Source: a virus (lineage: Duplodnaviria > Heunggongvirae > Uroviricota > Caudoviricetes). From it: DNA of 26,408 nt. Shown one piece after another: positions 1 through 26,408 of this stretch; the stretch's first letter is position 1; each line of letters begins with the position of its first letter. The stretch is taken from IMG/VR virus record IMGVR_UViG_2690316273_000020, one strand, 5' to 3'. The position numbers and the translations under genes were made by a program. The notes beneath the pieces were generated by a model, which was not told where the DNA came from, did no database searches, and saw only the letters and a program-made list of their open reading frames with translations.

Positions 1-258
1 ATGCAAACCGTTATTTTTGGTCGTCCGGGTTGCCCTTACTGTGTGCGTGCAAAAGATCTGGCTGAGAAATTGAGCAATGAACGCGATGATTTCCAGTATC
101 AGTATGTAGATATTCGTGCGGAAGGGATCACTAAAGAAGATCTACAACAAAAGGCAGGTAAACCCGTAGAAACCGTGCCGCAGATTTTTGTCGATCAGCA
201 ACATATCGGCGGCTATACCGATTTTGCTGCATGGGCGAAAGAGAATCTGGACGCCTGA
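1..258 (+). CDS. grxA: Glutaredoxin 1
   Basis: 85-aa ORF with the CPYC active site (GRPGCPYCVRAKDL); near-identical to enterobacterial GrxA as I recall it. Synteny with ybjM and ybjL. Confidence 0.9.
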   Translation: MQTVIFGRPGCPYCVRAKDLAEKLSNERDDFQYQYVDIRAEGITKEDLQQKAGKPVETVPQIFVDQQHIGGYTDFAAWAKENLDA

Positions 259-2855: not shown

Positions 2856-3074
2856 TCAAAGAGAGAGCGCCACCTGTCCTGATTTCATTGGATGCGGCTG
2901 AACCGGATTTGACTCTTTTGGCGTTGCAATCGAACGAACAAAAGTTTCATGGGTAACAAAAGTATGGCTGCAGTTAATGTTCTGGCACTGGTTGTAACGC
3001 TCTTTGGTCAATGAAGATACCTGAAAACTGCTGCGAGTATGGGCGGCACTTCCACACAGTGGGCAAATCATCAT
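2856..3074 (-). CDS. ogr: Ogr/Delta-family zinc-finger late-gene activator
   Basis: MMICPLCGSAAHTRSS...CQNINCSHTF has the CxxC...CxxxxC pattern and length (72 aa from the MM start) of P2 Ogr. GGAG lies 9 nt upstream of the ATG at 3074; the longer ORF to 3107 begins with GTG. Confidence 0.8.
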   Translation of the reverse strand: MMICPLCGSAAHTRSSFQVSSLTKERYNQCQNINCSHTFVTHETFVRSIATPKESNPVQPHPMKSGQVALSL

Positions 3075-3164
3075 TTTTCGAGTTCTCCCCATTTTTGCTA
3101 AATTCACAATAATGATACCGCATTATTCCATTTTGAAAACTTAAAAGTTCTCCATTGCGAAGAA

Positions 3165-4265
3165 TCATTCCATTTCGAAATCATCAATCTTCACTTCAAG
3201 CTCCAGACTGGTCGTAAAACCGTTATCCGGGCTGACGGTATGTGTCAGAGTCGTAATGGTCCATTCCGCATCATCTATCGGCTGTTTAAAACCACTGACC
3301 TTCACAGGCATTTCCGTGTAGAGATCTGCCCGCCCTTCCGCCAGTTGTAGCGAGAATGACGCAACGCCGCGTTGCAGGCGTTCCCACTGCATTTTTGCCG
3401 CTCGTTCGGCGTTGCTCCGGTTGGCATAAGTGCGATTAAGTACCAGCACGTTTTCATCCGTCCCCACCAGGTAATCGCCCTGCTTCGCTTCCGGCTCTTT
3501 CTTCTGCTTCTTAGTCCTGTGCTTACGCTTCACCGTAGTGCTTTCTTTCTTCGCGGGTTCGCGGGTATGCAACCAGCTGGCAATTACCCCCGTGTAGGCT
3601 CCGCGATCTGCCAGGGTAAAGCGGTGACTGTCGCCGTCCTTGCGTGTGATAGTGATCACCGGCAGTGGTTTACCAGTGGCGCTTTTGCCCTGTCCCTGCC
3701 GGATGAATAACAGATTGCCATTTTTCACCGACGCGATGGCACCGTACTGGCGCGCCAGCCGCATCAGAAAACTGCCGTCACTCTCATTAGTCTGGTCTAT
3801 ATGCTCCACGGGCTTATCCGACAGGTCTTTACCCAGTGCCATCTTCAGCTTGTGACGCGCGGCTATTTCCTTCACCACTTCCCCGACAGTGGTCTTGTGC
3901 CACGATTTTTCACGGCGGGTATTCAGCGTTTCCCTAAAATCAGCACTTCGCGCCCGGATAGTCAGGCGATCCGGTGCGCCAGTGTGTTCAATCTCGTCCA
4001 CCGTGAATGCCCCTTTCGGGAAAAGCGGCTGCCCCTTCCAGCCCAGCGCCAGCGTAATGACCGCACCACGGCGCGGCAGCACGATTTTTCCGTCGGCGTC
4101 GTCCAGCTCCAGATCAAGCTGGTCCGCTTCAAAGCCCCGGTTATCCGTCAGCGTAAGCCCCATCAGGCGGTTGTCCAGCACAGTGGTGATATCCTTGCCT
4201 TCAATACTGATGCTGAATGCGGGAGTTTTGTTGCCTTTGTTAAGCAATTCAGAGCTGAAATTCAC
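3165..4265 (-). CDS. D: Tail protein D (late control gene D product)
   Basis: 366-aa ORF in the P2 gpD position next to ogr; sequence recognised as gpD-like. Confidence 0.88.
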   Translation of the reverse strand: MNFSSELLNKGNKTPAFSISIEGKDITTVLDNRLMGLTLTDNRGFEADQLDLELDDADGKIVLPRRGAVITLALGWKGQPLFPKGAFTVDEIEHTGAPDRLTIRARSADFRETLNTRREKSWHKTTVGEVVKEIAARHKLKMALGKDLSDKPVEHIDQTNESDGSFLMRLARQYGAIASVKNGNLLFIRQGQGKSATGKPLPVITITRKDGDSHRFTLADRGAYTGVIASWLHTREPAKKESTTVKRKHRTKKQKKEPEAKQGDYLVGTDENVLVLNRTYANRSNAERAAKMQWERLQRGVASFSLQLAEGRADLYTEMPVKVSGFKQPIDDAEWTITTLTHTVSPDNGFTTSLELEVKIDDFEME

Positions 4266-11139: not shown

Positions 11140-11580
11140 ATGCAGAAATATATTTTCAGTGCCGATAAAAATGCGTTTTTCCCTGTGGAGCTTAAAATCG
11201 CTTATCAGGAATCCGGCGAATGGCCCGGTGATGGAATCGAAATTGACGACACTGTTGCCGCCGAATTTATGAAGGAAGCACCAGAAGGAAAATACAGAGG
11301 TGTCATCGACGGAATGCCTGCATGGATTGATATTCCACCGCCAACTCATGAGGAACAAATTGCCGCAGCCGAACTGGAAAAGCAGCAATTGATTAATCAG
11401 GTCAACGAATACACACACAGTAAGCAATGGCCTGGTAAAGCGGCGATTGGTCGCCTGAAAGGTGAGGAACTGGCGCAATATAATTTGTGGCTGGATTATC
11501 TGGACGCACTGGAACTGGTCGATACTTCCAGTGCGCCAGATATTGAATGGCCTACGCCTCCGTCAGTTCAGGCCAGATGA
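11140..11580 (+). CDS. Alternative tail-fibre assembly chaperone (Tfa/U'-like)
   Basis: 146-aa ORF whose C-terminus (LDYLDALELVDTSSAPDIEWP) parallels that of G (LDYIDAVTATDTSTAPDVIWP). Convergent with G, overlapping by 29 nt. Confidence 0.75.
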   Translation: MQKYIFSADKNAFFPVELKIAYQESGEWPGDGIEIDDTVAAEFMKEAPEGKYRGVIDGMPAWIDIPPPTHEEQIAAAELEKQQLINQVNEYTHSKQWPGKAAIGRLKGEELAQYNLWLDYLDALELVDTSSAPDIEWPTPPSVQAR

Positions 11581-19423: not shown

Positions 19424-20074
19424 TCAGCGGCTGTCATTGCGCAGTCTGCGCTCCAGCTGCTGTTTGTCTTTTTTCACGCCACAGCGGGGATCGAGCTGCA
19501 ACGCATGGTTGAGATGGTTAAGGGCGGAAGCCGGATTGCTTTCACTCAGGACAGCGCCAATCGCTTTATGCAGACGCGCCCGTGACTGGTCCGGCATATC
19601 CAGACCGTCTGTCAGCTCCAGCGTCTGCAGCAACAGATCGGCATCAAAGCCGGTGGCGGCAAGCATTGCGCTCTGCGCCGCGTCTGCCATTTCCTCTGCC
19701 AGCACGGTCTGCACATTGCGGTTACCCAGTGGCATCACCCAGCCATGACGCAGGGCATGACATCCGATCTCCAGCGCCCCGGCATAATCTCCGGCATCAA
19801 TGCGCCACAGCATCACGTACATCAGCACGTCATCCTGTTGAGTGCCTCCGGCAGCCAGGACGCCCTCTGCCCAGGCGGCGTACTTCGGCAGCAGCTCCAC
19901 CTTGATTTCCGCTTTTTTGACCGTGGACTGAACACCCTTGAGACGGCGGCGGTCTTCCGCCAGTTGCAGCAGCATCAGGTCATAGCCCGACGCGTGGAGA
20001 ACACTGCCGCCCTCGCGGGCGGCCTGTTCAGCCTGAACGCGCAGGCGATGCTGCCGTGCGGGACTCAGGCTCAT
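19424..20074 (-). CDS. M: Terminase endonuclease (small) subunit M
   Basis: 216-aa ORF directly after N; gpM-like. Confidence 0.85.
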   Translation of the reverse strand: MSLSPARQHRLRVQAEQAAREGGSVLHASGYDLMLLQLAEDRRRLKGVQSTVKKAEIKVELLPKYAAWAEGVLAAGGTQQDDVLMYVMLWRIDAGDYAGALEIGCHALRHGWVMPLGNRNVQTVLAEEMADAAQSAMLAATGFDADLLLQTLELTDGLDMPDQSRARLHKAIGAVLSESNPASALNHLNHALQLDPRCGVKKDKQQLERRLRNDSR

Positions 20075-22128: not shown

Positions 22129-23895
22129 ATGAACACCACACTGACACCCGCAGATCTCGATCCCCGTCGGCAGGCCATGCTGCTGTACTTTCAGGGATAC
22201 CGCGTCGCCCGCATTGCTGAAATGCTGGGCGAGAAAGTTGCAACTGTTCACAGCTGGAAAAAACGCGACAAGTGGGGTGACTATGGGCCGCTGGATCAGA
22301 TGCAGCTCACCACCGCCGCACGCTACTGCCAGCTCATTATGAAGGAGCACAAAGAAGGGAAAGATTTCAAAGAGATTGACCTGCTGGCGCGCCAGTCGGA
22401 GCGCCACGCGCGGATCGGCAAGTTTAACAATGGCGGCAACGAAGCCGATTTAAACCCTAACGTCGCCAACCGCAACAAAGGCCCACGCCGTCAGCCGGAA
22501 AAGAATGTTTTCACCGATGAACAGATTGAGAAGCTGGAAGAAATCTTCCATTCCTCCATGTTCAACTACCAGCGCCACTGGTGGGAAGCCGGAAAAACCA
22601 ACCGCATCCGCAACCTGCTGAAGTCACGCCAGATCGGCGCAACCTTCTATTTTGCCCGTGAAGCCCTGATTGACGCCCTGCTGACCGGACGTAACCAGAT
22701 TTTCCTTTCCGCCAGCAAGGCACAGGCCCACGTCTTTAAGCAGTACATCTTCGACTTCGCCAAAGAAGTGGAGGTGGAGCTGAAAGGTGATCCGATGGTG
22801 CTTCCTAACGGTGCCACGCTTTACTTCCTCGGCACCAATGCCCGCACTGCCCAGAGTTATCACGGCAACCTGTATCTGGATGAATATTTCTGGATACCGA
22901 AATTTCAGGAGCTGCGTAAAGTGGCTTCCGGTATGGCTATTCACAAAAAATGGCGACAAACCTATTTTTCCACGCCATCAAGCCTGACCCACAGTGCTTA
23001 TCCGTTCTGGTCCGGTGCGCTGTTCAACCGTGGACGCAACAAAGCCGACAAGGTGGACATCGACCTGTCCCACAGCAATCTGGCCCCCGGCCTGCTGTGC
23101 GCAGACGGGCAATACCGCCAGATAGTCACCGTGGAAGATGCGGTGCGCGGCGGCTGCAACCTGTTCGACCTTGACCAGTTGCGCATGGAGTACAGCCCGG
23201 ACGAATACCAGAACCTGCTGATGTGCGAGTTTGTGGACGATCTCGCGTCCGTGTTTCCGCTCAGCGAGCTGCAGGCGTGCATGGTGGACAGTTGGGAAGT
23301 CTGGACCGACTTTCATGCACTGGCCCTTCGCCCGTTTGGGTGGCGCGAAGTGTGGATCGGTTATGACCCGGCAAAAGGTACGCAGAACGGCGACAGCGCC
23401 GGATGCGTGGTGGTGGCACCGCCAGCCGTGCCGGGCGGTAAGTTCCGTATTCTTGAGCGCCACCAGTGGCGCGGGATGGACTTCCGCGCCCAGGCGGACG
23501 CCATCAAAAAACTGACCGAACAGTACAACGTGACATATATCGGCATCGACTCGACGGGTGTCGGTCACGGGGTTTACGAGAACGTGAAAGCGTTTTTTCC
23601 TGCCGTCCGGGAGTTTGTCTACAACCCCAACGTTAAAAATGCCCTGGTACTCAAGGCATACGACATTATCAGCCACCGCCGTCTGGAGTTTGACGCCGGG
23701 CACACCGACATTGCGCAGTCATTCATGGCAATCCGTCGCGCCACCACCGCCAGTGGCAACCGCCCGACCTATGAAGCCAGCCGCAGCGAAGAAGCCAGCC
23801 ACGCCGATCTGGCCTGGGCAACGATGCACGCACTGTTTAATGAACCGCTGCAGGGCGAGTCCGCCAATACAAGCAATATTGTGGAGATTTTTTGA
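22129..23895 (+). CDS. P: Terminase large (ATPase) subunit P
   Basis: 588-aa ORF transcribed divergently from O; gpP-like with an N-terminal HTH-like segment. Confidence 0.9.
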   Translation: MNTTLTPADLDPRRQAMLLYFQGYRVARIAEMLGEKVATVHSWKKRDKWGDYGPLDQMQLTTAARYCQLIMKEHKEGKDFKEIDLLARQSERHARIGKFNNGGNEADLNPNVANRNKGPRRQPEKNVFTDEQIEKLEEIFHSSMFNYQRHWWEAGKTNRIRNLLKSRQIGATFYFAREALIDALLTGRNQIFLSASKAQAHVFKQYIFDFAKEVEVELKGDPMVLPNGATLYFLGTNARTAQSYHGNLYLDEYFWIPKFQELRKVASGMAIHKKWRQTYFSTPSSLTHSAYPFWSGALFNRGRNKADKVDIDLSHSNLAPGLLCADGQYRQIVTVEDAVRGGCNLFDLDQLRMEYSPDEYQNLLMCEFVDDLASVFPLSELQACMVDSWEVWTDFHALALRPFGWREVWIGYDPAKGTQNGDSAGCVVVAPPAVPGGKFRILERHQWRGMDFRAQADAIKKLTEQYNVTYIGIDSTGVGHGVYENVKAFFPAVREFVYNPNVKNALVLKAYDIISHRRLEFDAGHTDIAQSFMAIRRATTASGNRPTYEASRSEEASHADLAWATMHALFNEPLQGESANTSNIVEIF

Positions 23896-24941
23896 TGGGA
23901 AAGAGTAAGAAAAACCGCGCTGCGGCGATGAATCACATCCAGCATAAAAGCCAGACTTCAGCCGAAGCATTCAGCTTCGGCGATCCCGTTCCTGTTCTGG
24001 ACCGCCGAGAATTACTGGACTATGTGGAATGCGTACAGATGGACCGTTGGTATGAGCCGCCCGTCAGCTTTGACGGACTGGCGCGCACCTTCCGCGCCGC
24101 CGTGCATCACAGTTCCCCGATTGCAGTAAAGTGCAACATTCTGACCAGTACCTATATCCCTCATCCGCTGCTCAGCCAGCAGGCTTTTTCGCGTTTTGTG
24201 CAGGACTATCTGGTATTTGGTAACGCCTACCTGGAGAAACGCACGAACCGCTTCGGTGAAGTTATCGCCCTTGAACCGACCCTGGCAAAATACACCCGAC
24301 GCGGATTAGACCTGGATACCTACTGGTTTGTGCAATACGGCATGACTACGCAGCCGTATCAGTTCACGAAAGGCAGCATTTTTCATCTGATGGAACCGGA
24401 CATCAACCAGGAGATCTACGGCCTGCCCGGTTATCTTTCTGCCATTCCGTCAGCCCTGCTCAACGAGTCCGCCACGCTGTTCCGCCGCAAGTATTACATT
24501 AACGGCAGTCATGCAGGCTTCATCATGTACATGACCGATGCAGCGCAGAACCAGGAGGATGTGAACAACCTCCGCAATGCGATGAAAAGCGCCAAAGGTC
24601 CTGGTAACTTCCGTAACCTGTTTATGTACTCGCCTAACGGTAAAAAGGACGGGCTTCAGATTATCCCGTTGTCAGAAGTGGCGGCGAAGGATGAGTTCCT
24701 GAATATCAAGAACGTGAGCCGGGACGACATGATGGCGGCGCATCGTGTGCCGCCACAAATGATGGGGATAATGCCTAATAATGTCGGGGGGTTTGGGGAT
24801 GTAGAAAAGGCAAGCCGTGTCTTTGTCCGCAACGAGTTGATACCTCTGCAGAAACGCCTACAGGAACTTAACAACTGGCTGGGCGATGAAGTTATACGTT
24901 TCGAGCCGTACACTTTAGATATTCAGAATGAAAAGAAATAA
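23892..24941 (+). CDS. Q: Portal protein Q
   Basis: 349-aa ORF overlapping the P stop by 4 nt; gpQ-like. Confidence 0.9.
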   Translation: MMGKSKKNRAAAMNHIQHKSQTSAEAFSFGDPVPVLDRRELLDYVECVQMDRWYEPPVSFDGLARTFRAAVHHSSPIAVKCNILTSTYIPHPLLSQQAFSRFVQDYLVFGNAYLEKRTNRFGEVIALEPTLAKYTRRGLDLDTYWFVQYGMTTQPYQFTKGSIFHLMEPDINQEIYGLPGYLSAIPSALLNESATLFRRKYYINGSHAGFIMYMTDAAQNQEDVNNLRNAMKSAKGPGNFRNLFMYSPNGKKDGLQIIPLSEVAAKDEFLNIKNVSRDDMMAAHRVPPQMMGIMPNNVGGFGDVEKASRVFVRNELIPLQKRLQELNNWLGDEVIRFEPYTLDIQNEKK

Positions 24942-24968
24942 AAGTTAGCGAATAAAAATCATTAGCAT

Positions 24969-24989
24969 AGGCCGCAAACTGAGCGGCCT
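24969..24989. terminator. Putative bidirectional hairpin terminator between Q and the convergent cargo ORF
   Basis: aggccgc-aaactga-gcggcct forms a 7-bp GC stem; U-tracts on both strands are weak. Confidence 0.4.
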
Positions 24990-24995
24990 TATTCA

Positions 24996-25265
24996 TTACC
25001 AATTTCTTTTTTCGGAGTTTAGCCAATCACCGCATGGATAATATCTTGACGCCCATTCACCTTGTAAACGAGCTACAAACAGAATATCGTTACTATCGAC
25101 CCTGGCTTGGAGTCCGTCACGCAGTTGAGTTGCGGTCAGCGTTGTATCTACTAACCAAAATGATTCAAGATATTTACAGTATGTAAATTGCTTTAGATAG
25201 TCAAAAACTTCATCGTAGTTTCTTCCCGGAGCCTTCAAGTCATAGGTTATACAATAAATAGCCAT
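24996..25265 (-). CDS. Hypothetical protein (89 aa), AT-rich cargo between Q and cos
   Basis: ATG start with GGAG 8 nt upstream; alternating hydrophobic pattern (IYCITYDL, NYDEVFDYLKQF, WLVDT, ILFVARL) suggests a small alpha/beta fold. No family recognised. Confidence 0.5.
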   Translation of the reverse strand: MAIYCITYDLKAPGRNYDEVFDYLKQFTYCKYLESFWLVDTTLTATQLRDGLQARVDSNDILFVARLQGEWASRYYPCGDWLNSEKRNW

Positions 25266-25268
25266 TCT

Positions 25269-25451
25269 CTAAGCTCCGCATTTTTTATCATTTGGGGAAC
25301 ATCTTAACCTGCGACATTTGCGGCAATACGATTGAGGGATCAGCCGCTCTCCTTCCATAGTTCTAAAACCAAACACTTCTTCAATTTTGTTCAAATCACC
25401 ACTTGCAATAACCCCACAGCAGGGGCAGACAGCCTCAATTTGAAATGCCAT
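25269..25451 (-). CDS. Hypothetical Cys-rich small protein (about 60 aa; possible zinc ribbon)
   Basis: Start MAFQIEAVCPCCG.. has GGAG 6 nt upstream; the ORF-track version begins with TTG at 25514. Cys cluster CPCC ... CRKCRRLRC; basic C-terminus. Confidence 0.45.
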   Translation of the reverse strand: MAFQIEAVCPCCGVIASGDLNKIEEVFGFRTMEGERLIPQSYCRKCRRLRCSPNDKKCGA

Positions 25452-25550
25452 GTCTATCTCCATTCCACATGTTGAATGTAGGGTAATACTTCCTTTCAAG
25501 CAAAAATGAGACAAGGATCTTGAAACCTAATTTAAACTTGCTTGCGCGCG

Positions 25551-25569
25551 CTCGTATCCCCGCCACGCC
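25551..25569. other. cos-like site (P2-family 19-nt cohesive-end sequence)
   Basis: The minus strand reads GGCGTGGCGGGGATACGAG; the first 13 nt match the remembered P2/186 cos ends (GGCG[A/T]GGCGGGGAAAGCA..). It is a GC-rich island in AT-rich DNA about 610 bp from the Q stop. Confidence 0.45.
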
Positions 25570-25618
25570 TGCCCGCTTTATGTAGTAGTTTTCATGCAGG
25601 TGCATGATCTACGCGAAA

Positions 25619-25638
25619 GCCCGCCAGTTCTGGCGGGC
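25619..25638 (-). terminator. Possible weak intrinsic terminator for the large cargo ORF
   Basis: 8-bp GC stem gcccgcca/tggcgggc followed on the minus strand by UUUCGCGU. Confidence 0.3.
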
Positions 25639-25685
25639 CCTAGCAAAACGATCCTCAAACGATCATGCGATCTCATGCAGCATAG

Positions 25686-26408
25686 TCATGCACGATCATT
25701 TGACTCAGCATCTGCTGCACGCTTGCTGCGCGAAGATGCACTTTTACTATCAATCTTTCGACAGTTCTTTCTATCCCTGGCTTCATTTTCTTTAAATTTG
25801 TTATATGTCTCAGTATCAAAAAACGAAATTGTTTCAACCTCATCTTTTGGTATGAGCACACGGAAATCTTCGATATTAAGCCGAGACATTCCACTTATCA
25901 CACCACTATCAAGATAATGTTGGTGATAGTTAGTCGTGATACTAATCGTTAGATCATCTTTATCCCGATATCCGCTTAACATCGGGAGAAGTTCAAGGTG
26001 CTCTGAAAGCCCGTTTTCTAACGCCGGACAAGTAACAAAACCAACATAGATTTTGCGAGACGACAGAGTTGCTATGATCGGAAACTGTCTTGCGGACGCT
26101 TCCATGAGTAATGATTCGAAAGCGTTATTACCCACAGCTTTAGCTAAGGCATCCCAGCGACGATCTCCACGTGATGTGCGTAACTTATTTCCAAAACCTG
26201 AAATCGCAGCGAGGACAATTGAAATCATAACCCATGCTATCTGTTTGATTTCATTTATTCTTTGAAGTTTGTCTTTCGATGAAGACAACATGCCATTAAA
26301 ACTGTCAGGTGTTAGATTCAAGGCATTAGCCAGCCAACGAAACCCTCCGCTGACGTTCAAAATAAAGGTGAAAAAACCGCTGTCACGAACGGTGCAATAG
26401 TGATCCAC
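25686..26408 (-). CDS. Hypothetical protein, 5'-truncated by the window edge (at least 240 aa visible), cargo in the old/tin-equivalent position
   Basis: Long ORF in AT-rich DNA running off the window; one predicted TM helix (IAWVMISIVLAAISGFG); low-complexity basic/acidic C-terminal tail. No motif I recognise. Confidence 0.6.
   Translation of the reverse strand: MDHYCTVRDSGFFTFILNVSGGFRWLANALNLTPDSFNGMLSSSKDKLQRINEIKQIAWVMISIVLAAISGFGNKLRTSRGDRRWDALAKAVGNNAFESLLMEASARQFPIIATLSSRKIYVGFVTCPALENGLSEHLELLPMLSGYRDKDDLTISITTNYHQHYLDSGVISGMSRLNIEDFRVLIPKDEVETISFFDTETYNKFKENEARDRKNCRKIDSKSASSRSKRAADAESNDRA

What the first reader, a model, noticed from the sequence alone, without database searches (positions are those of the whole stretch)
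25590..25700. Dense cluster of GATC sites and TCATGCA repeats beside cos
Five GATC sites fall within 92 bp (25606, 25650, 25661, 25669, 25694), where about 0.4 would be expected by chance. They are embedded in repeated (GA)TCATGC(A) units, including an inverted pair catgca-gg-tgcatg at 25594-25607. The cluster lies in the 3' end and downstream region of the large cargo ORF, 40-130 bp from the cos-like sequence. Clustered Dam sites are known to control phage P1 pac cleavage and SeqA binding; this could analogously couple packaging or cargo expression to methylation state, or be iterated binding sites for a regulator.
Basis: partly seen in the sequence, partly recalled or inferred. Interest (0 to 1): 0.5.

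Follow-up and report, generated by a model that had tools for sequence, protein, structure and literature searches.

The report
Extended cos packaging site of P2-like prophage
The GATC/TCATGCA cluster is real, but it is the conserved outer part of the DNA-packaging (cos) site of a P2/Fels-2-type prophage: the ATGCA repeats are what is conserved, and most of the Dam sites are lineage-specific passengers.

Summary
There are five GATC sites in 92 bp, and five (T)CATGCA units, one pair of them inverted.

The cluster lies inside a ~150-bp block (window ~25545-25693). That block stays 88-95% identical in Fels-2, SopEPhi, RE2010 and Klebsiella/Yersinia P2-like phages, while the DNA on both sides of it is unrelated. 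It starts at the cohesive-end sequence (25552-25570), and two deposited linear phage genomes end at the position matching window 25570.

Across 120 viral contigs sharing the cos core, plus P2, P4 and 75 P4-like satellites, the invariant feature is ATGC(A) at fixed offsets from the core: +37 (half of an inverted pair), +109, +119 and +132. P2 and P4 have no GATC here. 48 of 49 distinct satellite flanks have none, and 21 of 40 sequence clusters have none.

Of the window's five GATCs:
- two (25650, 25661; 11 bp apart) are near-invariant in the Fels-2-type lineage;
- two (25606, 25669) vary;
- one (25694) lies outside the block, in cargo-specific DNA.

Best reading: these are cosB-like recognition repeats for the P2-type terminase. 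Dam control like that of P1 pac is not supported as a general mechanism. It remains a low-probability possibility for the conserved GATC pair.

The parts
25545..25693 (.). Conserved extended cos block of a P2/Fels-2-type prophage. The flanks on both sides are hypervariable.
   Evidence: [quoted passage not shown] Alignments of 120 loci show the same edges.
25552..25570 (-). Predicted 19-nt cohesive-end sequence (cosN). On the minus strand it reads GGCGTGGCGGGGATACGAG.
   Evidence: It aligns with P2 cosL GGCGAGGCGGGGAAAGCAC, annotated in NC_001895, matching 14 of 19 positions. The linear genome records of Salmonella phage SEN8 and Erwinia phage EtG end at the position matching window 25570. It differs at one position from the Smp131 cohesive end quoted in PMC3931495.
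25592..25607 (.). cosN-proximal inverted repeat TCATGCA-GG-TGCATGA. It contains the ATGC at offset +37.
   Evidence: I8. ATGC at +37 is present in 120/120 loci and in P2 and P4. Arm conservation is 0.94-0.99 against 0.35 for the 2-nt spacer. The spacer varies freely: CC 40, GG 20, GT 20.
25606..25609 (.). GATC no. 1, not conserved. It is formed by the GA at the end of TGCATGA plus a variable TC.
   Evidence: Weighted conservation of the TC is 0.38. Most relatives read TGCATGACA. The site is present in 25 of 56 members of the window's own cluster.
25619..25638 (.). GC-rich palindrome or hairpin: GCCCGCCAG-TT-CTGGCGGGC.
   Evidence: I2. A hairpin-forming segment with dG <= -8 is found at this position in 34 of 40 cluster representatives, with different stem sequences. 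P2 has none. A T-run follows on the minus strand in only 5 of 40. The window copy does not pass the terminator scan.
25646..25664 (.). Direct repeat AAACGATC x2, 11 bp apart. It carries the two conserved GATC sites (25650-25653 and 25661-25664).
   Evidence: D5. Both GATCs have weighted conservation 1.0 over 71 distinct sequences, against 0.65-0.71 for the adjacent columns. The pair is present in 6 of 40 clusters that are less than 80% identical to each other. It is absent from P2, P4 and the satellites.
25663..25692 (+). Three distal direct repeats: TCATGCG (25663), TCATGCA (25673) and TCATGCA (25686), spaced 10 and 13 bp.
   Evidence: ATGC lies at offsets +109/+119/+132 in 111, 109 and 90 of 120 loci. 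The offsets are 109/119/131 in P2, 109/119/132 in P4 and 108/118/131 in the window. Spacing is (10, 13) in 91 of 120 loci. The same arrangement is seen in 49 distinct P4-like satellite flanks.
25669..25672 (.). GATC no. 4, not conserved.
   Evidence: Weighted conservation is 0.56. Relatives read GATT, AATC, GTTT or GGAT here.
25694..25697 (.). GATC no. 5. It lies outside the conserved block, in the last codons of the cargo ORF (GAT CGT GCA TGA).
   Evidence: It is shared only by loci with the same cargo: L013, L067 and the E. coli hits at 99.7%. Fels-2 lacks it.
25686..26408 (-). Cargo ORF of unknown function. It is partial here and 280 aa in E. coli relatives. Its stop codon lies in the last cos repeat.
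   Evidence: No Pfam, NCBIfam or PADLOC match. Its position matches the P2 cos-proximal defence hotspot described in PMC9122126.
19424..20074 (-). Small terminase subunit gpM, the candidate binder of the repeats.
   Evidence: Pfam PF05944 Phage_term_smal, E = 9e-40.
22129..23895 (+). Large terminase subunit gpP, with an N-terminal helix-turn-helix (HTH)-like domain.
   Evidence: Pfam PF03237, PF17289 and PF06056 (residues 11-68), with a weak Sigma70_r4/HTH_23 match.
23892..24941 (+). Portal protein gpQ.
   Evidence: Pfam PF04860. Its position relative to cos is the same as in P2 and Fels-2.

Best explanation
The cluster is the outer part of the cos packaging site of a P2-family (Fels-2/Felsduovirus-type) prophage. 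The site runs from the 19-nt cohesive-end sequence (25552-25570) for about 125 bp towards the cargo side.

Its layout is:
- an inverted pair of (T)CATGCA half-sites, 22-37 bp from the nick;
- a GC-rich palindrome;
- three direct (T)CATGCA repeats 93-122 bp from the nick, spaced 10 and 13 bp apart.

Shown: this layout, with the same base-pair offsets, is kept in P2, Fels-2, more than 100 other P2-like contigs and P4-like satellites. The satellites share nothing with their helper phages except cos.

Inferred: the repeats are the docking sites (a cosB-like module) for the P2-type terminase, meaning the small subunit gpM and possibly the N-terminal HTH of gpP. Docking there would position the nuclease on cosN and start packaging from this end.

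The GATC density is largely a by-product. GATC arises easily where TCATGC is preceded by GA or TGCATGA is followed by TC. Three of the five sites are not conserved.

The two conserved GATCs (25650, 25661) belong to a lineage-specific AAACGATC x2 element between the palindrome and the first distal repeat. Its role is unknown. It could be an extra recognition element for this lineage's terminase, or a methylation-sensitive site.
For: 1. Conservation island. 25542-25694 is 88-95% identical in phages of four genera with unrelated flanks, and is present in 1274 of 5426 complete E. coli genomes.
2. It is a real cos. There is homology to annotated P2 cosL/cosR. The SEN8 and EtG genome records end at the position matching window 25570. 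gpM, gpP and gpQ lie directly upstream.
3. Fixed architecture. ATGC lies at +37/+109/+119/+132 in 120/111/109/90 of 120 loci, and in P2, P4 and Fels-2, although the intervening sequence is unalignable between lineages.
4. P4-like satellites keep the same four elements: 7 in the first sample and 75 more, giving 49 distinct flanks. P2 and P4 share only the cos region (PMC9122126).
5. Among 40 cluster representatives, TGCA, ATGC and CATG are the most enriched 4-mers (8.1x, 7.5x, 5.6x). GATC is only 2.8x enriched and is absent from 21 clusters.
6. Per-column conservation is 0.93-1.0 for the proximal pair and the first two distal repeat units (0.60 for the third, 25686-92, whose scored region was cut at 25691) and for two of the GATCs, and 0.38-0.56 for the other two GATCs scored.
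7. Longer cos flanks beyond the 55-bp core raised P2 cosmid transduction about 1e4-fold (PMC9594776).
Against: - No binding or cleavage data exist for this sequence, so gpM as the binder is inferred by analogy with lambda Nu1 and cosB.
- P2 has only half of the proximal palindrome and no GC hairpin, so those two elements cannot be essential for every terminase of the family.
- The two invariant GATCs are not explained by the ATGCA model. The GATCC at 25650 in particular overlaps no ATGCA unit.
- gpM type and flank type co-vary only as expected from common descent. That is not independent evidence for recognition.
- I could not read Ziermann & Calendar 1990, which mapped the functional limits of P2 and P4 cos.
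Confidence: 0.75

Rival explanations
1. Methylation-coupled packaging. The clustered Dam sites make cos cleavage or terminase binding depend on the methylation state, as at P1 pac. Alternatively they recruit SeqA to newly replicated, hemimethylated cos DNA.
For: - Two GATCs 11 bp apart (25650, 25661) are near-invariant in 71 distinct Fels-2-type flanks, while the neighbouring columns vary. They recur in 6 clusters that are less than 80% identical to each other.
- Other lineages carry GATCC pairs about 10 bp apart at a different position, offsets 29/39.
- GATC is 2.8x enriched in cos flanks at the cluster level.
- Most prophages of this lineage encode a Dam-family methylase next to gpA (TIGR00571, 323 bits).
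Against: - P2 and P4 cos flanks have no GATC.
- 48 of 49 distinct satellite flanks have none, and 21 of 40 clusters have none.
- Three of the window's five sites are not conserved.
- The GATC pair occurs without a phage Dam (L006, L007, L022, L089, L111, L116). A phage Dam occurs without the pair (L058, L059, L077, L113).
- The repeat unit is TCATGC, not the TGATCA/G hexamer of P1 pac, and this terminase is cos-type, not headful.
- No literature linking Dam to P2-family cos was found.
Confidence: 0.1
2. The region is the 3' end of the cargo gene, with a transcription terminator and regulatory repeats. The hairpin at 25619-25638 would terminate minus-strand transcription coming from the cargo and early operon, and the repeats would belong to that 3' UTR.
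For: - The cargo ORF stops at 25686 and the hairpin lies 48 bp downstream on the minus strand.
- In most Fels-2-type relatives the stem is followed on the minus strand by TTTTG.
- Some other lineages have a clear minus-strand terminator at this position: L047, L060, L002.
- A terminator near the cos of a 186-related prophage is mentioned in a reference title, Dodd & Egan 1996.
Against: - The block is identical next to many unrelated cargo genes and in satellites, so it does not belong to any one cargo.
- The window copy fails the terminator scan.
- Only 5 of 40 representatives have a T-run after the stem, and P2 has no hairpin.
- This reading explains neither the ATGCA repeats nor their fixed offsets from cosN.
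- A terminator role for the hairpin is compatible with the cos reading rather than an alternative to it.
Confidence: 0.1
3. The region holds iterated operator sites for a phage or host regulator, such as Ogr/Delta, Cox, the immunity repressor or IHF, controlling the cargo or late genes.
For: Short repeats at helical-turn spacing, together with an inverted pair, are typical of operators.
Against: - The elements are conserved in P4-like satellites, whose regulators are unrelated to those of P2.
- They are conserved independently of what is encoded on either side.
- No sigma-70-like promoter is found in 25200-26000.
- The repeats keep a fixed distance from the cos nick, not from any gene.
Confidence: 0.04

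Closest known systems
cos site of phages P2 and P4 (the 55-bp core of Ziermann & Calendar 1990; P2 terminase gpM/gpP)
   Same: - A homologous 19-nt cohesive-end sequence and core.
- The same position, between portal gene Q and the cargo and replication-gene side.
- The same ATGCA elements at +37/+109/+119/+131-132.
- The same terminase families.
   Different: - The cohesive end differs at 5 of 19 positions, and the unit is TCATGC rather than (A/C)ATGCA.
- The window has a full proximal palindrome and a strong GC hairpin, both lacking in P2.
- It has an AAACGATC x2 element with two conserved GATCs that P2 and P4 lack.
- The papers I could read describe only the 55-bp core. The three distal repeats lie outside that core.
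Fels-2 / SopEPhi / RE2010 (Felsduovirus) cos region
   Same: The whole 150-bp block is 88-92% identical. Four of the five GATC sites sit at the same positions in Fels-2. The block lies in an unannotated intergenic gap between two cargo genes.
   Different: The cargo genes on both sides differ. There is a 1-nt deletion in the A-run before 25650. The fifth GATC is specific to this cargo.
Lambda cosB (R3-I1-R2-R1 sites bound by gpNu1, with IHF)
   Same: The logic is the same: a nick site, then a proximal small-terminase site, an intervening element, and distal iterated sites, all on one side of cosN within about 130 bp.
   Different: There is no sequence similarity. The small terminase belongs to a different family (PF05944, not Nu1). 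No IHF site was identified. Binding has not been demonstrated.
Phage P1 pac site (hexamer repeats containing GATC; Dam methylation needed for cleavage)
   Same: Several GATC sites lie in short repeats next to a packaging cleavage site, and the phage lineage often encodes its own Dam.
   Different: This is a cos-type rather than headful system. The repeat unit is TCATGC, and GATC is present in only part of the units. Most GATCs are not conserved, and closely related cos sites work with none (P2, P4).

Membership tests
P2-family cos site | GC-rich 19-nt cohesive-end sequence homologous to GGCGAGGCGGGGAAAGCAC within a conserved core | tested here: met
   25552-25570 on the minus strand reads GGCGTGGCGGGGATACGAG, 14/19 identical to P2. 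The 20-nt core TCCCCGCCACGCCTGCCCGC was found exactly in at least 120 viral contigs.
P2-family cos site | Location next to portal gene Q and the terminase genes P and M, with the replication gene A and cargo on the other side | tested here: met
   gpM, gpP and gpQ were identified by Pfam. The related prophage L124 and Fels-2 have cargo, DinI and gpA to the right of the block.
P2-family cos site | Mature virion DNA ends at this sequence | tested here: inconclusive
   The records of the related linear phage genomes SEN8 and EtG end at the position matching window 25570. The ends of this prophage's own virion DNA cannot be determined with these tools.
P2-family cos site | ATGCA elements at fixed offsets (+37, +109, +119, +131/132), as in P2 and P4. 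This criterion was derived here and is not a published one. | tested here: met
   Window offsets are 37/108/118/131.
P2-family cos site | Sufficient in cis for packaging by the cognate terminase | not testable with these tools
   This needs a cosmid transduction assay.
P1 pac-type Dam-dependent packaging site | GATC is an integral, conserved part of every repeat unit | tested here: not met
   The unit is TCATGC. Only one unit (25661-25668) contains a conserved GATC. The sites at 25606 and 25669 have conservation 0.38 and 0.56.
P1 pac-type Dam-dependent packaging site | GATC sites conserved in related packaging sites | tested here: not met
   There are none in P2 or P4. 48 of 49 satellite flanks and 21 of 40 clusters have none.
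P1 pac-type Dam-dependent packaging site | Cleavage depends on adenine methylation | not testable with these tools
   This needs dam- hosts or in vitro cleavage of methylated against unmethylated DNA.
SeqA-binding GATC cluster | At least two GATC sites on the same helical face within about 30 bp | tested here: met
   25650 and 25661 are 11 bp apart and conserved within the lineage. This is a weak criterion, met by many sequences.
SeqA-binding GATC cluster | Prolonged hemimethylation or SeqA occupancy in vivo | not testable with these tools
   This needs methylation profiling or SeqA ChIP.
Lambda-type cosB | R-site sequences bound by a Nu1-family small terminase, plus an IHF site | tested here: not met
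   The small terminase is PF05944, not the Nu1 family. I saw no sequence resemblance to the lambda R sites and did not identify an IHF consensus in 25571-25693, by inspection. The relation is 'works like', not membership.

The most novel reading that the evidence does not exclude
In the Fels-2-type branch of the P2 family, the invariant pair of GATC sites 11 bp apart (25650, 25661), between the cos hairpin and the first distal terminase repeat, is a methylation sensor. SeqA, or the terminase itself, would distinguish hemimethylated (just replicated) cos DNA from fully methylated cos DNA, with the phage's own Dam speeding the transition. Packaging would then be timed relative to replication. 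This would be a cos-type counterpart of P1 pac control that P2 and P4 lack.
Probability: 0.1. Interest if true: 0.6.

Novelty: new member of a known kind. Interest (0 to 1): 0.27.

Why it matters
For this window the result mainly settles annotation. The odd repeat and GATC cluster is the functional cos flank of the prophage. It belongs neither to the cargo gene nor to a new regulatory device.

Two points have some wider use:
- The comparison defines, at base-pair resolution, a family-wide cos architecture: a proximal inverted ATGCA pair plus three distal ATGCA repeats at fixed offsets. It extends well beyond the 55-bp core usually quoted. This is relevant to the design of P2/P4 cosmids and transducing particles, and to finding the exact boundaries of the two defence-gene hotspots that flank cos.
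- It isolates one small element, the conserved GATC pair of the Fels-2 lineage, that the terminase-repeat model does not explain. That element can be tested directly for dependence on Dam or SeqA.

Tried and rejected
1. Phage-encoded Dam as a correlate of the GATC pair. Most Fels-2-type loci have both (30), but at least 6 loci have the pair without Dam and 4 have Dam without the pair. I rejected an obligate link.
2. Co-variation of gpM with flank type. gpM at 80% identity or more goes with the Fels-2-type flank, and gpM at about 50% identity with other flanks. This is simple co-descent of a linked module and gives no independent evidence for recognition.
3. The hairpin as a canonical intrinsic terminator. 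The window copy fails the scan, and only 5 of 40 representatives have a T-run. My tail calculation is crude, because the MFE folds over-extend the stems. I kept this only as a possible secondary role.
4. Known RNA family. Rfam gave only chance-level hits outside the cluster.
5. Function of the cargo and of the small ORFs left of cos. Pfam and NCBIfam gave nothing, and PADLOC nothing convincing (only a weak Cas2-like hit, E = 5e-4, for the 89-aa ORF 24996-25265).
6. Finding the same prophage, with both flanks, in complete E. coli genomes. No record covers both sides of cos, which is consistent with independent turnover of the two hotspots.
7. Literature. Ziermann & Calendar 1990 is not held. 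The papers that are held quote only the 55-bp core. No paper links Dam or GATC to P2-family cos. The Salmonella Dam/prophage paper does not concern Fels-2.
8. GATC enrichment in pooled loci (1.93 against 0.38 per 140 nt) is inflated by relatedness. After clustering at 80% identity it drops to 2.8x, with most clusters having none.

Full report
**What is there.** The window holds host genes at its left end: a glutaredoxin at 1-258 and an Asp-Al_Ex/TrkA_C permease at 935-2620. A P2-like prophage follows. It contains ogr (2856-3107), gpD (3165-4265), the small terminase gpM (19424-20074, PF05944), the large terminase gpP (22129-23895) and the portal gpQ (23892-24941). After Q come two small minus-strand ORFs, then the region in question. 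After that comes a minus-strand ORF (25686-26408) that runs off the window.

- GATC lies at 25606, 25650, 25661, 25669 and 25694.
- TCATGC lies at 25592, 25663, 25673 and 25686, with an inverted copy at 25602.
- The inverted pair TCATGCA-GG-TGCATGA spans 25592-25607, and a 9-bp GC stem spans 25619-25638.
- The GATC clustering alone is modestly significant: at least 5 sites in 92 bp somewhere in the window in 2.3% of random placements.
- The TCATGC clustering is very significant, about 7e-6 after scan correction.

**It is the cos site.** blastn against phage genomes shows that window 25542-25694 is a sharply bounded island. It is 88-95% identical in Fels-2, RE2010, SopEPhi and many Klebsiella, Yersinia and E. 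coli P2-like phages, while the DNA on both sides does not match. The block occurs in 1274 of 5426 complete E. coli genomes.

The minus strand of 25552-25570 reads GGCGTGGCGGGGATACGAG, the homologue of the annotated P2 cohesive end GGCGAGGCGGGGAAAGCAC. The deposited linear genomes of phages SEN8 and EtG end at the position matching window 25570. In Fels-2 the block lies in the unannotated gap between two cargo genes, downstream of Q.

The two variable regions beside the block match published descriptions. One is the P2 defence hotspot between gpA and gpQ, directly adjacent to cos (PMC9122126). The other is a second insertion site between cosL and Q (PMC5694545).

**What is conserved inside the block.** I scanned IMG/VR for the 20-nt cos core only, which does not bias the flank. 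This gave 120 loci.
- 63 distinct sequences align with the window along the whole block.
- 57 share only the core and a set of short elements.
- Measured from the first base of the core, ATGC is found at +37 in 120/120 loci, at +109 in 111, at +119 in 109 and at +132 in 90.
- The three distal units have spacing (10, 13) in 91 of 120 loci.
- P2 has ATGC at 37/109/119/131, P4 at 37/109/119/132, Fels-2 at 37/109/119/132 and the window at 37/108/118/131.
- Between these elements the sequences of different lineages cannot be aligned, yet the distances are kept. That is the signature of a protein-DNA architecture.

P4-like satellites keep all four elements. They must be packaged by the helper's terminase, and they share only cos with P2. 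This holds for 7 satellites in the first sample and for 75 further loci found through Psu, which give 49 distinct flanks.

Among 40 representatives of clusters at 80% identity, the most enriched 4-mers are TGCA (8.1x), ATGC (7.5x) and CATG (5.6x). In the proximal palindrome the arms are conserved (0.94-0.99) and the 2-nt spacer is free (0.35; CC 40, GG 20, GT 20). This is as expected for a dimeric binding site.

**What happens to the GATCs.** P2 and P4 have no GATC in the 150 nt after the core. 48 of 49 distinct satellite flanks have none, and 21 of 40 clusters have none. Within the Fels-2-type lineage and related clusters (71 distinct sequences, position-weighted), the five sites fare as follows.

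| Site | Weighted conservation | Note |
|---|---|---|
| 25606 | 0.38 (its TC) | Most relatives read TGCATGACA |
| 25650 | 1.0 | Adjacent spacer columns 0.65-0.71 |
| 25661 | 1.0 | Adjacent spacer columns 0.65-0.71 |
| 25669 | 0.56 | Variable |
| 25694 | not scored | Beyond the end of homology; shared only by loci with the same cargo |

The sites at 25606 and 25661 arise where GA abuts a TCATGC unit. At such a junction a GATC needs only two specific bases.

So the five-site cluster is not a conserved unit. It consists of a conserved pair (AAACGATC x2, 11 bp apart, D5) plus three incidental sites. The pair is a genuine, unexplained island of conservation. It recurs in 6 clusters that are less than 80% identical to each other, sometimes as the palindrome GATCC-N5-GGATC.

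**Tests of the Dam idea.** A related E. coli prophage with the same cargo encodes a Dam-family methylase (TIGR00571, 323 bits) next to gpA. Across the loci, 30 have both the GATC pair and this Dam. However, at least 6 have the pair without Dam, and 4 have Dam without the pair. The association is therefore lineage co-occurrence and not obligate coupling. In any case the enterobacterial hosts supply Dam. I found no literature linking Dam to P2-family cos. The P1 pac analogy fails on the defining features that can be tested here: GATC is not part of each repeat unit, and it is not conserved in related functional sites.

**Mechanism.**
- Shown: the region is part of a cos site, and its ATGCA elements are the family-wide invariant at fixed distances from the nick.
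- Inferred: the elements are binding sites for the P2-type terminase. This means the small subunit gpM (PF05944) and possibly the HTH-like N-terminus of gpP (PF06056).
- The arrangement is analogous to lambda cosB: a proximal site, an intervening structural element and distal iterated sites.
- This fits the report that cos flanks longer than the 55-bp core raise P2 cosmid transduction about 1e4-fold (PMC9594776).
- gpM type tracks flank type, but only as expected from linkage.

The GC hairpin has lineage-specific stems at a fixed position and is absent from P2. It looks like a minus-strand terminator in only some lineages. It may stop read-through into cosN, but that is secondary.

**Comparison and novelty.** This is a member of the known P2-family cos sites, closest to Fels-2. 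The papers I could read describe only the 55-bp core. The primary mapping paper (Ziermann & Calendar 1990) is not held, so I cannot say whether the three distal repeats were already noted. From memory, which is unverified, its functional cos extended to roughly 125 bp, and that would include them.

The finding is therefore an ordinary, already explained kind of feature, with one small open point: the conserved GATC pair.

**Verdict.** The interest score is 0.27.

Noticed in passing
window 24950-25545 and 25694-26408: The conserved cos block is flanked on both sides by hypervariable DNA. In the alignments of 120 loci the left flank (between Q and cos) is as variable as the right, cargo flank. 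No complete E. coli genome has the window's combination of both flanks.
   Followed up: partly
window 25686-25688: The stop codon (TGA) of the minus-strand cargo ORF is supplied by the last conserved TCATGCA cos repeat. The cargo insertion boundary lies within a few bases of the end of the cos block (about 25693).
   Followed up: no
window 24996-25265 (-) and 25269-25514 (-): Two small ORFs lie between Q and cos. The 89-aa one has a weak Cas2-like PADLOC match (E = 5e-4, 17.9 bits). The other, read from the ATG at 25451, encodes a peptide of about 60 aa with CxxC...CxxC, like a zinc ribbon. Neither has a Pfam or NCBIfam match.
   Followed up: partly
L124 10471-11328 (E. coli NZ_CP016404 prophage with the same cargo); many of L001-L120: Fels-2-type prophages usually encode a Dam-family DNA adenine methylase (TIGR00571, 323 bits) directly upstream of the replication endonuclease gpA. 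The window ends before this position, so it is unknown whether this prophage has one.
   Followed up: partly
L125-L204 (P4-like satellites), cos core: Satellites with nearly identical cos flanks carry either the P2-type (…CCGCCTCGCC…) or the 186/Fels-2-type (…CCGCCACGCC…) cohesive-end sequence. This suggests recombination within cos, or tolerance of either end by helper terminases.
   Followed up: no
window 25599-25600 and 25628-25630; alignment: The spacer of the proximal palindrome alternates between GG and CC. The hairpin centre alternates between GTTC and GAAC among close relatives. In both cases the centre of a palindrome is replaced by its reverse complement, as expected from hairpin-mediated template switching or inversion.
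   Followed up: partly
window 55-257: A second loose GATC cluster (55, 126, 139, 193, 257; 5 sites in 206 bp) lies in the host glutaredoxin gene at the left end of the window, outside the prophage.
   Followed up: no
L016, L026, L039, L049, L100 (offsets +29 and +39 from the cos core): Some P2/186-type lineages have two GATCC motifs 10 bp apart between the proximal palindrome and the hairpin, for example TGATCCACTGTGATCCAC. This is a different position from the Fels-2-type pair. GATC is followed by C in 20 of 37 cases among the cluster representatives.
   Followed up: partly
L123 (P4) 11496-11540: In P4 the second and third distal ATGCA units form an inverted repeat (GCCATGCA...TGCATGGC) followed by a T-rich tract just after psu. 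The cos repeats may therefore double as the psu terminator.
   Followed up: no
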